Virus record (IMG/VR): IMGVR_UViG_2541047097_000005
Strand: one strand, 5' to 3'
Length of the DNA stretch: 4,283 nt
From: a virus
Taxonomy: Duplodnaviria; Heunggongvirae; Uroviricota; Caudoviricetes
Shown: positions 3,156 through 4,283 of the stretch, one piece after another
Position numbering within the stretch: the first letter of the stretch is position 1
Layout: each line of letters starts with the position of its first letter
Notes under the pieces: generated by a model
What the model was told of the DNA's origin: nothing
Databases searched by the model: none
Seen by the model: only the letters and a program-made list of their open reading frames with translations
Program-made: the position numbers and the translations under genes

Positions 3156-3713
3156 ATGACCACTATTACCAAAGATCGACTGCTGACAATCCAGCATTGG
3201 CGCGAAACATACGGACCGGGTAGCAACGTTGTGCTTCCAGCAGAAGAAGCGGAAGAGCTGGCACGGATTGCGCTGGCATCACTGGCAGCAGTATCGGATG
3301 AACGAGCAGCCTATGAATTATTTATGGAGAAGCGTTTCGGAGAATCTGTAGATCGCCGCAGAGCAAAAAATGGCGATAGAGAATACATGGCATGGGATAT
3401 GGCGCTTGGCTGGATTATCTGGTGTCACCGCGCCGCCATGCTTCAGGCTGGAAACTTTCGGGAAAATAAGGGTTCGTCAACCAATAATTTTCGGATAATC
3501 TCGGAAACGTCAACCAACTCTCCGGCAATCCCTGATGAGGTGTTGTCCGCAATCCTGAAGGTCGCCAGGCTTCGTGCAGATTTCGATGCTTCTGAAGTGG
3601 ACAGGCGAGGTATCGGTAGTTGTCTGGATGAGGCCGAGCAAGAACTTATCGTTACCATTAACGAATACGCCAGTCAGATCGCAGTAGAAGCGACACAGGG
3701 GGAGAACCAATGA
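3156..3713 (+). CDS. Hypothetical prophage protein (185 aa), function unknown
   Basis: ATG 3156 with AAGGTGA at 3143-3149, 2 nt after the upstream stop. The N-terminus (LTIQHWRETYGPGSNVVLPAEEAEELARIALASLAAV) resembles N-termini I associate with prophage Ea22-like/early-left proteins, but I cannot assign a family. Stop TGA 3711-3713. Confidence 0.7.
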   Translation: MTTITKDRLLTIQHWRETYGPGSNVVLPAEEAEELARIALASLAAVSDERAAYELFMEKRFGESVDRRRAKNGDREYMAWDMALGWIIWCHRAAMLQAGNFRENKGSSTNNFRIISETSTNSPAIPDEVLSAILKVARLRADFDASEVDRRGIGSCLDEAEQELIVTINEYASQIAVEATQGENQ

Positions 3714-3787
3714 GCCGGCCAGATGCATTTGCAGGCGTTGCTATAGCTATTGCTTTTCTAGTATATGTTATTTGTCGGTGGGGGTAA
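3710..3787 (+). CDS. Candidate mini-ORF, 25-aa hydrophobic peptide (MSRPDAFAGVAIAIAFLVYVICRWG)
   Basis: ATG 3710 overlaps the upstream TGA (ATGA) and has GGGGAG at 3698-3703 with 6-nt spacing. The 16-residue hydrophobic core could span a membrane. Stop TAA 3785-3787. Too short for the ORF track. Confidence 0.3.
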   Translation: MSRPDAFAGVAIAIAFLVYVICRWG

Positions 3788-3822: not shown

Positions 3823-3927
3823 ATGTCGGATGATATTTCACTGGTAATGGAAGGCGCTCTGGCTGTTATTGCTGTTGTGGGTGTTTACTGCCTGGTTGTG
3901 TTTTTGATGGAGCGCCTGGGGAACTGA
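3823..3927 (+). CDS. Candidate small transmembrane protein, 34 aa (MSDDISLVMEGALAVIAVVGVYCLVVFLMERLGN)
   Basis: ATG 3823 preceded by a near-consensus SD AAGGGAGGG at 3811-3819. Single roughly 21-residue hydrophobic helix with a charged C-terminus (ERLGN). Stop TGA 3925-3927. Too short for the ORF track. Confidence 0.45.
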   Translation: MSDDISLVMEGALAVIAVVGVYCLVVFLMERLGN

Positions 3928-3937
3928 ATTCATTCCG

Positions 3938-3953
3938 TATGGGAATTCCCATA
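3938..3953. repeat. 16-bp perfect palindrome TATGGGAATTCCCATA
   Basis: Read directly; it is its own reverse complement. Sits between the 34-aa ORF stop and the predicted hok promoter -35. Confidence 0.9.
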
Positions 3954-3967
3954 TCGGGCAAAACGGT

Positions 3968-3995
3968 TTGCTGTAAAGCGAGAGTTAAGTAGAAT
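3968..3995 (+). promoter_or_regulatory. Predicted sigma-70 promoter for the hok-type mRNA
   Basis: -35 TTGCTG (3968-3973), 16-nt spacer, -10 TAGAAT (3990-3995). The predicted start near 4002-4004 would give an mRNA 5' end GGGTGCTTGAGGCTGTCTGCCTC, matching the remembered 5' end of plasmid R1 hok mRNA (GGCGCUUGAGGCUUUCUGCCUC). Confidence 0.45.
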
Positions 3996-4013
3996 TGCTG
4001 CGGGTGCTTGAGG

Positions 4014-4049
4014 CTGTCTGCCTCGGGCATGCCACCGTAAGGCAGACAG
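4014..4049 (+). promoter_or_regulatory. hok mRNA leader stem-loop (9-bp perfect stem, 18-nt loop)
   Basis: CTGTCTGCC (4014-4022) pairs perfectly with GGCAGACAG (4041-4049). The loop contains the palindromic octamer GGCATGCC (4026-4033). Position and sequence parallel the 5' structured element of R1 hok mRNA. Confidence 0.55.
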
Positions 4050-4057
4050 AGAAAAGC

Positions 4058-4122
4058 CCCAGTTAACATTACGCGTCCTGCAAGACGCTTAACATTAATC
4101 TGAGGCCCAATCTATGCTTCAC
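4058..4122 (-). ncRNA. sok: Predicted Sok-like antisense RNA (type I antitoxin); ends approximate
   Basis: Placed by analogy with R1 hok/sok, where Sok is antisense to the leader and mok start region. Covers the mok-like ATG at 4114 and the hairpin at 4073-4088. Start is inferred from the minus-strand promoter at 4129-4157. The 3' end is guessed from the stretch whose antisense reads GGGGCTTTTCTCTGTCTGCC, similar to R1 GGGGCUAUCUUCUUUCUGCC. Confidence 0.4.
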
Positions 4123-4128
4123 AAACGT

Positions 4129-4157
4129 AGGTTAGCCTCTTACGCGCCGAAAGGCAA
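4129..4157 (-). promoter_or_regulatory. Predicted promoter for the Sok-like antisense RNA
   Basis: On the minus strand: -35 TTGCCT (complement of 4152-4157), 17-nt spacer, -10 TAACCT (complement of 4129-4134). Same position and near-identical spacer as the R1 sok promoter I recall (TTGCGC, 17 nt, TATCCT). The -10 is a weak match to TATAAT. Confidence 0.4.
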
Positions 4158-4170
4158 GGAGAAGCAGGTT

Positions 4171-4283
4171 ATGAAGCAGCAAAAGGCGATGTTAATCGCC
4201 CTGATCGTCATCTGTTTAACCGTCATAGTGACGGCACTGGTAACGAGGAAAGACCTCTGCGAGGTACGAATCCGAACCGGCCA
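4171..4283 (+). CDS. hok: Hok/Gef family type I toxin (small membrane-depolarising peptide), 3' end truncated by the window
   Basis: ATG 4171 with SD AAGGAG at 4156-4161. Translation MKQQKAMLIALIVICLTVIVTALVTRKDLCEVRIRTGQ.. matches the Hok/Gef family and, from memory, is closest to chromosomal HokD/RelF-type sequences. No stop before the window end. Confidence 0.9.
   Translation, partial: MKQQKAMLIALIVICLTVIVTALVTRKDLCEVRIRTG

What the first reader, a model, noticed from the sequence alone, without database searches (positions are those of the whole stretch)
4114..4173. Upstream mok-like start codon is in the same reading frame as hok
ATG 4114 lies exactly 19 codons upstream of hok ATG 4171 with no intervening stop (MLHKRRLASYAPKGKEKQV-MKQQ..), and the nearest in-frame upstream stop is TAA 4096-4098. 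In R1, as I recall, mok overlaps hok in a different frame and couples hok translation. Here, translation from 4114 would produce an N-terminally extended Hok. This may be a different coupling arrangement or a chromosomal-type variant.
Basis: seen in the sequence. Interest (0 to 1): 0.45.

Follow-up and report, generated by a model that had tools for sequence, protein, structure and literature searches.

The report
In-frame mok start upstream of hok
The upstream ATG is the start of mok, the leader reading frame of a prophage hok/sok toxin-antitoxin locus, and its being in frame with hok is an ordinary arrangement already annotated for E. coli K-12 mokC/hokC.

Summary
ATG 4114 lies 57 nt (19 codons) upstream of hok ATG 4171, in the same frame and with no stop between them. 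It follows a GAGG Shine-Dalgarno sequence, and TAA 4096 closes the frame upstream.

The window is an intact hokD-type hok/mok/sok locus in an E. coli O157:H7 lambdoid prophage. ATG 4114 is the positional homologue of the mok start codon.

In R100, which carries the leader I recall for R1, mok starts at -58, is out of frame and has 70 codons.

The in-frame arrangement is not new. K-12 mokC/hokC is annotated with the same 57-nt offset and a shared stop codon (UniProt MOKC_ECOLI, 69 aa). An F srnB-type locus, and Photorhabdus, Pantoea and Citrobacter loci, have it too.

Across about 130 fetched loci the mok ATG lies at -57 (in frame, most common), at -58 (out of frame) or at -56 (a 19-codon mok ending in ATGA on the hok start). 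All three occur among loci with identical Hok.

The 19-codon extension shows no coding-type substitution pattern. The frame therefore looks incidental to a spacing fixed by the Sok promoter and the RNA structure.

Verdict: already known, low interest.

The parts
3990..3995 (+). Probable -10 hexamer (TAGAAT) of the hok/mok mRNA promoter
   Evidence: It aligns with the TATAAT upstream of K-12 hokC and lies 6 nt before G4002, where the Rfam leader model starts. The consensus scan did not call this promoter at its threshold, so it is inferred.
4002..4170 (+). hok mRNA 5' leader, which contains the tac element, SD-mok, the mok start and the Sok target
   Evidence: Rfam RF01794 matches 4002-4176 over the full model at 114.9 bits (gathering score 59), E 1.4e-26.
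4002..4013 (+). 5'-end element (tac-like, GGGTGCTTGAGG) that pairs with a 3' fold-back element (fbi-like) lying outside the window
   Evidence: In the fold of the full-length mRNA from L001, nt 1-12 pair with nt 375-387 (CCUCAACGCACCC, L001 5447-5459), with P(unpaired) 0.01. After 3' truncation the 5' end re-pairs with nt 53-59. This is a prediction only.
4096..4098 (+). In-frame TAA that closes the mok/hok frame upstream
   Evidence: Read directly.
4102..4105 (+). Shine-Dalgarno sequence of mok (GAGG)
   Evidence: A GAGG 4-11 nt before the ATG was the search criterion and was met in 119 of 126 loci.
4114..4116 (+). mok start codon
   Evidence: It occupies the same alignment column as the annotated mokC ATG and as the ATG of an R1-type locus. 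It lies at -57 in 98 of 126 loci.
4114..4283 (+). mok reading frame (70 codons: a 19-codon extension plus all of hok). It runs off the window end and stops at the hok stop, at window-equivalent position 4326.
   Evidence: Translation of L001 5185-5397. The exact 70-aa sequence is in public databases on at least 1000 contigs, named 'Hok family toxin'.
4050..4122 (-). Predicted Sok antisense RNA: a 5' tail antisense to the first codons of mok, then a long hairpin and a U-rich tail
   Evidence: Position taken from the annotated K-12 sokC, whose 5' end lies 9 nt inside mokC. The hairpin folds at -33.6 kcal/mol, z = -5.1. The ends are inferred, not mapped.
4129..4157 (-). Probable Sok promoter: -35 TTGCCT (4157 to 4152), 17-nt spacer, -10 TAACCT (4134 to 4129)
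   Evidence: Hexamers read. The same layout is seen in the R100 sequence (TTGCGC, 17 nt, TATCCT). The consensus scan did not call it. The -35 overlaps SD-hok and the -10 lies in the conserved AGGTTAGCCTCTTAC block.
4156..4161 (+). Shine-Dalgarno sequence of hok (AAGGAG)
   Evidence: Invariant in the four-locus alignment and in nearly all loci shown.
4171..4283 (+). hok (HokD-type toxin, 51 codons; cut by the window end)
   Evidence: PGAP annotates hokD at L001 5242-5397. Pfam HOK_GEF scores 81.6 bits against a cut-off of 22.

Best explanation
ATG 4114 is the start of mok, the leader reading frame of an intact hok/mok/sok type I toxin-antitoxin locus (hokD/hokW type) carried by an O157:H7 lambdoid prophage.

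By homology with the R1 system, the locus should work in these steps:
1. The long hok mRNA starts near 4002 and is first locked by pairing of its 5' and 3' ends.
2. After 3' trimming it refolds.
3. Ribosomes can then load at SD-mok (4102-4105) and ATG 4114, unless the antisense Sok RNA has paired with this region. Sok is transcribed from the minus strand starting near 4122.
4. Ribosomes translating mok run across the hok ribosome-binding site (AAGGAG 4156-4161, ATG 4171) and allow Hok synthesis.

In this locus mok happens to be in the hok frame. Ribosomes that start at 4114 must therefore make a 70-aa Hok with a basic 19-residue N-terminal extension, exactly as annotated for MokC of E. coli K-12.

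The frame relation is most likely incidental. The distance between the two start codons is held at 56-58 nt by the Sok promoter and the RNA structure packed between them, and single-base indels move mok among the three frames.

Shown here: the anatomy, the homology and the distribution of frames. Inferred: the coupling, Sok control and production of the extended protein.
For: Identity and context:
- 100% match to an O157:H7 prophage, with hokD annotated between the replication genes and the DUF968/RusA/Q genes.
- The Rfam hok-leader model RF01794 scores 114.9 bits. Pfam HOK_GEF scores 81.6 bits.

Homology of the ATG:
- It aligns with the annotated mokC start.
- K-12 mokC and hokC share a stop codon and their starts are 57 nt apart. 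MokC is UniProt MOKC_ECOLI, 69 aa.

Frame survey:
- 98 of 126 loci have the ATG at -57, in frame and sharing the hok stop.
- 13 have it at -56: a 19-codon ORF whose TGA overlaps the hok ATG.
- 8 have it at -58: frame +1, 55-69 codons.
- 7 are truncated loci.
- Further loci: the F srnB type is at -57 and the pndA type at -58. R100 is at -58 with 70 codons. Three distant phage loci are at -57. K-12 mokB/hokB is at -58.
- All three classes occur among prophage loci whose Hok is 100% identical.
- In every locus with a recognisable mok, the ORF reaches at least the hok start codon.

No peptide-level constraint on the extension:
- Codon-position entropy is 0.74/0.83/0.76 in the extension, against 0.77/0.65/0.94 in hok.
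- The conserved nucleotide block GCCTCTTAC is read in different registers in different in-frame loci: RLASY, VPLTD and VSLL.

RNA and DNA constraints on the interval:
- The Sok -35 overlaps SD-hok, and the Sok -10 lies in the conserved block.
- The Sok hairpin has z = -5.1.
- 5'/3' end pairing and refolding are predicted.
Against: - There are no expression data for this locus.
- The promoter scan did not call either the hok or the Sok promoter at its threshold.
- The survey is biased towards HokD/HokC-like loci because HokD was the query. The 78% in-frame share is therefore not a family-wide frequency.
- The codon-position test is weak, because the sequences are related and RNA and promoter constraints overlap the region.
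Confidence: 0.9

Rival explanations
1. The 70-aa in-frame product is a functional toxin proteoform in its own right, or is even the main product. On this reading the in-frame arrangement is selected, not incidental.
For: - The in-frame class is the most common in the sample, across several genera.
- The extension is basic and would sit on the cytoplasmic side of a membrane peptide with its N-terminus inside (inference).
- Annotation pipelines sometimes call the 68-71-aa forms as the Hok toxin.
Against: - Loci with identical Hok switch to -56 or -58 by 1-nt indels, and the extended product is then lost.
- R1/R100, pnd and hokB work from out-of-frame mok.
- The extension shows no third-position excess, and its conserved nucleotides are read in different registers.
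- A strong AAGGAG SD and the ATG at 4171 are conserved in all classes.
- The Pfam domain starts only at residue 25 of the 70-aa ORF.
Confidence: 0.08
2. One reading: the in-frame mok marks a new or mechanistically different coupling arrangement.
For: It differs in frame from R1/R100, where mok is at -58 and out of frame.
Against: - The same geometry is annotated for K-12 mokC/hokC and mokA/hokA and is present in an F srnB-type locus.
- SD-mok, the Sok position, SD-hok and the leader model are all conserved with the out-of-frame loci.
Confidence: 0.02
3. ATG 4114 is a vestigial or unused codon, and hok is translated independently from its own strong SD.
For: SD-hok AAGGAG is predicted to be largely unpaired in both the full-length and the truncated folds, with P(unpaired) about 0.75.
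Against: - The ATG with its GAGG is conserved in 119 of 126 loci across genera.
- The mok ORF always reaches the hok start.
- Sok overlaps the mok initiation region, not the hok one, by homology with the annotated sokC.
- MFE predictions for a 400-nt RNA are not reliable enough to overturn this.
Confidence: 0.05

Closest known systems
mokC/hokC/sokC (gef locus) of E. coli K-12
   Same: - The mok start is 57 nt (19 codons) upstream of hok, in the same frame and sharing the stop codon.
- Mok is therefore Hok with a 19-residue N-terminal extension (MOKC_ECOLI, 69 aa).
- The two share the GAGG SD, the leader architecture and the Sok position.
   Different: - HokC is about 82% identical to this Hok.
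- The extension peptide differs (MLNTCRVPLTDRKVKEKRA against MLHKRRLASYAPKGKEKQV), because the conserved nucleotides are read in another register.
- The window has an 18-nt insertion in the Sok hairpin region.
- hokC is a chromosomal locus, not a prophage one.
hok/mok/sok of plasmids R1 and R100
   Same: - The same family and leader elements: 5' end, SD-mok GAGG, the AGCCTCTTAC block, SD-hok AAGGAG.
- Sok is antisense to the mok initiation region.
- This is the mechanistic model used here.
   Different: - In R100, mok starts at -58, in frame +1. It has 70 codons and its own stop 4 nt before the hok stop, so Mok shares no sequence with Hok.
- The hokW paper gives R1 Hok as 44% identical to HokW (PMC8621323).
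hokW-sokW of Sakai prophage Sp5 (E. coli O157:H7)
   Same: It is a hok-sok locus of a lambdoid prophage of O157:H7 with a 51-aa Hok. It was shown experimentally to act as a type I toxin-antitoxin system (PMC8621323).
   Different: I could not check whether the window is Sp5 itself or one of the paralogous prophage copies; there are 6 places in the matching genome. That paper does not discuss the mok frame.
hokD (relF) of the K-12 Qin prophage
   Same: The Hok-coding part is nearly identical: 99.2% over query positions 228-354, which is window 4157-4283.
   Different: The K-12 copy matches only from window position 4157 onward. It therefore lacks the promoter, the leader, the mok start and Sok, and has unrelated sequence upstream (L007). 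The window carries the intact version.
srnB (F-type) and pndA (IncI-type) plasmid loci
   Same: The srnB type has an ATG at -57, in frame, giving a 68-aa product that shares the stop.
   Different: The pndA type has an ATG at -58, out of frame, with 67 codons. Both toxins are distant from this Hok.

Membership tests
hok/mok/sok type I toxin-antitoxin locus | Small Hok/Gef-family membrane toxin ORF | tested here: met
   Pfam PF01848 HOK_GEF scores 81.6 bits against a cut-off of 22. PGAP annotates hokD in the identical locus.
hok/mok/sok type I toxin-antitoxin locus | Conserved structured hok mRNA leader | tested here: met
   Rfam RF01794 matches over the full model at 114.9 bits, against a gathering score of 59.
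hok/mok/sok type I toxin-antitoxin locus | mok ORF with its own SD that starts upstream of hok and is translated across the hok initiation region | tested here: met
   GAGG at 4102-4105 and ATG at 4114. The ORF is open through the hok start to the hok stop.
hok/mok/sok type I toxin-antitoxin locus | cis-antisense Sok RNA whose 5' end overlaps the mok initiation region, with its promoter inside the mok-hok interval | tested here: inconclusive
   For:
- Homologous position to the annotated sokC.
- Hexamers TTGCCT, 17 nt, TAACCT.
- Stable hairpin with z = -5.1.

Against:
- The promoter scan did not call it.
- No transcript ends are known.
hok/mok/sok type I toxin-antitoxin locus | 5'-3' end pairing (tac/fbi) of the full-length mRNA, with refolding after 3' trimming | tested here: met
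   In L001, nt 1-12 are predicted to pair with nt 375-387, with P(unpaired) 0.01, and refolding is predicted after truncation. This is a prediction only, and the 3' element lies outside the window.
hok/mok/sok type I toxin-antitoxin locus | hok translation depends on mok translation and is blocked by Sok | not testable with these tools
   Needs genetics or translation assays.
In-frame mok class (mokC/hokC type) | mok ATG 57 nt upstream of the hok ATG, in the same frame, sharing the stop codon | tested here: met
   Window/L001, compared with mokC 16751..16960 and hokC 16751..16903.
Out-of-frame mok class (R1/R100, pnd, mokB type) | mok ATG 58 nt upstream, in frame +1, with its own stop inside hok | tested here: not met
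   R100 is at -58 with 70 codons. mokB/hokB is at -58. pndA is at -58. The window is at -57 in frame 0.

The most novel reading that the evidence does not exclude
The frame of mok relative to hok defines three functionally different locus types:
- In-frame loci, like this one, make two Hok proteoforms: a 70-aa form with a basic N-terminal extension and the 51-aa form.
- Loci with mok at -58 make an unrelated Mok peptide.
- Loci with mok at -56 use a 19-codon leader and ATGA termination-reinitiation.

On this reading the extended proteoform has its own toxicity, targeting or stability, so frequent 1-nt frame switching among prophage copies would tune killing.
Probability: 0.1. Interest if true: 0.4.

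Novelty: already known. Interest (0 to 1): 0.1.

Why it matters
The finding matters little in itself. The in-frame mok is the arrangement already annotated for mokC/hokC and is common across the family.

It has two practical uses:
- Gene callers give either the 51-aa or the 70-aa ORF for the same locus. Hok family annotations therefore mix Hok and Mok-Hok forms.
- The survey shows that the mok frame is labile (-56, -57 or -58) even among loci with identical Hok. This argues that only translation across the hok initiation region matters, not the Mok peptide.

A recent survey of Hok diversity explicitly left Mok out because its start is hard to call (bioRxiv 10.1101/2025.08.07.668861). The simple rule 'GAGG, then ATG, 56-58 nt before the hok ATG' recovered a candidate in about 95% of the loci fetched here.

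Tried and rejected
1. I first concluded that R1 mok is in frame. I based this on L003, a plasmid locus whose Hok is identical to R1 Hok. This was wrong. L003 is a minority variant. The leader I recall for R1 parB is 100% present in R100 and in at least 2655 plasmids, and there mok is at -58 and out of frame, with the published 70 codons. The plasmid R1 record itself (KY749247) is not in the collections, so R100 stands in for it.

2. I searched the literature for an explicit statement of the mok/hok frame. Reviews say only that mok 'overlaps' hok. The primary papers were not held (PMC395038, PMC1370018). 'orf69'/gef found nothing relevant. My memory that Poulsen et al. 1991 described orf69 as the in-frame leader of gef is therefore unverified.

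3. The consensus promoter scan found neither the hok nor the Sok promoter. It gave one likely spurious + strand hit and the hok terminator.

4. NCBIfam gave only sub-threshold Hok-family hits and has no Mok-specific model.

5. A viral-contig scan with HokB found nothing, and one with R1 Hok found only 3 loci.

6. The second Rfam hit, the snoRNA family ceN48 (E = 1), was dismissed as chance.

Full report
**Observation.** In the window, ATG 4114-4116 lies 57 nt upstream of the hok ATG at 4171-4173. The intervening 18 codons (LHKRRLASYAPKGKEKQV) contain no stop. TAA 4096-4098 is the nearest upstream in-frame stop, and no other start codon lies between it and 4114. A GAGG lies 8 nt before the ATG. 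The hok ORF runs off the window end. In a 100%-identical genomic locus (L001, E. coli O157:H7 PV15-279), the ORF from this ATG is 70 codons and ends at the hok stop. No other + strand ORF of at least 20 aa crosses the hok start.

**What the locus is.**
- The window matches an O157:H7 lambdoid prophage. The locus sits between the replication genes and the DUF968/RusA/Q genes. PGAP annotates a 51-aa hokD there and no mok.
- Rfam RF01794 matches 4002-4176 over the full model at 114.9 bits, against a gathering score of 59. The match is on the hok mRNA strand, so the model covers the hok leader.
- The ORF carries Pfam HOK_GEF at 81.6 bits.
- The K-12 hokD (relF) copy matches only from window position 4157 onward. 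It lacks the leader, the mok start and Sok. The window therefore holds the intact form of a locus that is truncated in K-12.
- A prophage hok-sok of O157 Sakai (hokW-sokW, HokW 51 aa) has been shown to work as a type I toxin-antitoxin system (PMC8621323).

**Other parts of the locus.**
- The K-12 annotation places the sokC 5' end 9 nt inside mokC. By alignment, Sok here would start near 4122 on the minus strand.
- Upstream of that start lie TAACCT (4134 to 4129) and TTGCCT (4157 to 4152), 17 nt apart. R100 has the same layout.
- The minus-strand RNA from 4122 forms a long hairpin followed by a U-rich tail, at -33.6 kcal/mol and z = -5.1.
- The consensus promoter scan did not call these hexamers, so the Sok promoter is inferred.
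- In the fold of the full-length mRNA taken from L001, the first 12 nt pair with CCUCAACGCACCC just before the terminator, with P(unpaired) 0.01. After 3' truncation the 5' end re-pairs internally, and SD-mok moves into a hairpin whose loop holds the start of mok. This resembles the tac/fbi refolding scheme described for R1 (PMC1635323; PMC2891591). It is a prediction only.

**How the frame compares with known loci.**
- K-12 RefSeq annotates mokC at 16751..16960 and hokC at 16751..16903. They share a stop, and the starts are 57 nt apart, exactly as in the window.
- That 69-aa MokC is UniProt MOKC_ECOLI.
- mokA (a pseudogene) shares its stop with hokA.
- mokB (1491962..1492129) and hokB (1491922..1492071) have starts 58 nt apart and different stops, so they are out of frame.
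- An F srnB-type locus has an in-frame ATG at -57, giving 68 aa. A pndA-type locus has an ATG at -58, out of frame, with 67 codons.

**The R1 case and a correction.** I first misjudged R1. A plasmid locus with a Hok identical to R1 Hok (L003) has an in-frame ATG at -57. That locus is a minority variant. The leader I recall for R1 parB is 100% present in R100 and in at least 2655 plasmids. There mok starts at -58, in frame +1, and has 70 codons, ending 4 nt before the hok stop. This agrees with the 70-codon mok that I recall from the literature. The arrangement is nonetheless long known and is not confined to chromosomes.

**Survey of fetched loci.** I fetched loci with HokD as the query from species-representative genomes and from viral contigs. 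I classified each by the first ATG following a GAGG, 45-80 nt before hok.

| mok ATG position | Loci (of 126) | Distinct sequences | Arrangement |
|---|---|---|---|
| -57 | 98 | 61 | In frame, shares the hok stop |
| -56 | 13 | 5 | 19-codon ORF whose TGA overlaps the hok ATG (ATGA) |
| -58 | 8 | 9 | Frame +1, 55-69 codons |
| none found | 7 | 6 | Truncated loci |

- The locus counts come and the distinct-sequence counts. The two sets differ slightly; for example, K-12 hokB is included only.
- Three further distant phage loci are at -57.
- All three classes occur among prophage loci with 100%-identical Hok, and they differ by single-base indels in the leader.
- In every locus with a recognisable mok, the ORF reaches at least the hok start.
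- The sample is biased towards HokD/HokC relatives, so the shares are not family-wide frequencies.

**Whether the extension is selected as a peptide.** Within the in-frame class, nucleotide variability by codon position is 0.74/0.83/0.76 in the extension. In hok it is 0.77/0.65/0.94, with the expected third-position excess. The conserved block GCCTCTTAC is read as RLASY in this locus, as VPLTD in mokC and as VSLL in distant loci. The nucleotides are conserved, not the peptide. The interval contains the Sok -10, spacer and -35, the Sok target and SD-hok. This accounts for a fixed spacing of 56-58 nt and makes the frame a by-product.

**Mechanism (inferred by homology with R1).**
- Ribosomes load at SD-mok and ATG 4114 on the 3'-processed mRNA, unless Sok has paired there.
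- Translation of mok across the hok ribosome-binding site permits initiation at 4171.
- Because mok is in frame here, ribosomes that start at 4114 produce a 70-aa N-terminally extended Hok.
- Whether that species is toxic or has a role of its own is untested. The lability of the frame argues against a required role.

**Verdict.** Novelty: already known. Interest: low.

Noticed in passing
L058, L068, L094, L134 (prophage hokD-type) and L015, L017 (E. ruysiae and E. whittamii hokC-type), around locus positions 545-604: A third mok architecture. The ATG lies at -56 and opens a 19-codon ORF whose TGA stop overlaps the hok ATG (ATGA). This is the classic termination-reinitiation geometry. It occurs in loci whose Hok is identical to that of in-frame loci.
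   Followed up: partly
L003 443-659 compared with L141 465-681: R1-type plasmid hok loci with identical Hok come in two leader variants: ATGTCTAGTCCACATCAGG (mok at -58, out of frame; R100 and at least 2655 plasmids) and ATGTCTGACAACATCAGG (mok at -57, in frame). The 71-aa in-frame product is recorded on hundreds of contigs.
   Followed up: partly
window 3938-3953: A perfect 16-nt palindrome, TATGGGAATTCCCATA, lies between the stop of the small ORF ending at 3927 and the hok promoter region. It could be a protein-binding site or a hairpin. No T-run follows it.
   Followed up: no
window 3710-3787 and 3823-3927: Two small hydrophobic ORFs lie just upstream of the hok locus. One is 25 aa (MSRPDAFAGVAIAIAFLVYVICRWG). 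The other is 34 aa (MSDDISLVMEGALAVIAVVGVYCLVVFLMERLGN) and is annotated as a hypothetical protein, WP_001278460.1. The first starts with an ATGA overlap on the stop of the 185-aa ORF at 3156-3713.
   Followed up: no
window 4070-4087: An 18-nt insertion (ACGCGTCCTGCAAGACGC, itself a small hairpin) relative to K-12 hokC lies at the tip of the Sok hairpin / leader stem. It lengthens the predicted Sok stem-loop.
   Followed up: no
window 4002-4176: The Rfam family named 'sok' (RF01794) matches the hok mRNA strand, from the mRNA 5' end to the hok ATG, and not the antisense strand on which Sok is encoded. A strand call taken from this family would place Sok on the wrong strand.
   Followed up: no
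L001 5242-5397 compared with the protein clusters: Annotation is inconsistent. PGAP calls the 51-aa hokD in this genome, but the identical 70-aa ORF is deposited elsewhere as 'Hok family toxin' on at least 1000 contigs. 'MokC' is named a toxin in NCBI records and a regulatory protein in UniProt.
   Followed up: partly
L018 (Acinetobacter idrijaensis), L023 (Xanthomonas pisi), L056 (Candidatus Scatousia MAG): Very short contigs (275-2995 bp) in non-enterobacterial assemblies carry E. coli-type hokD at 96-100% identity. These are most likely contamination of those assemblies.
   Followed up: no
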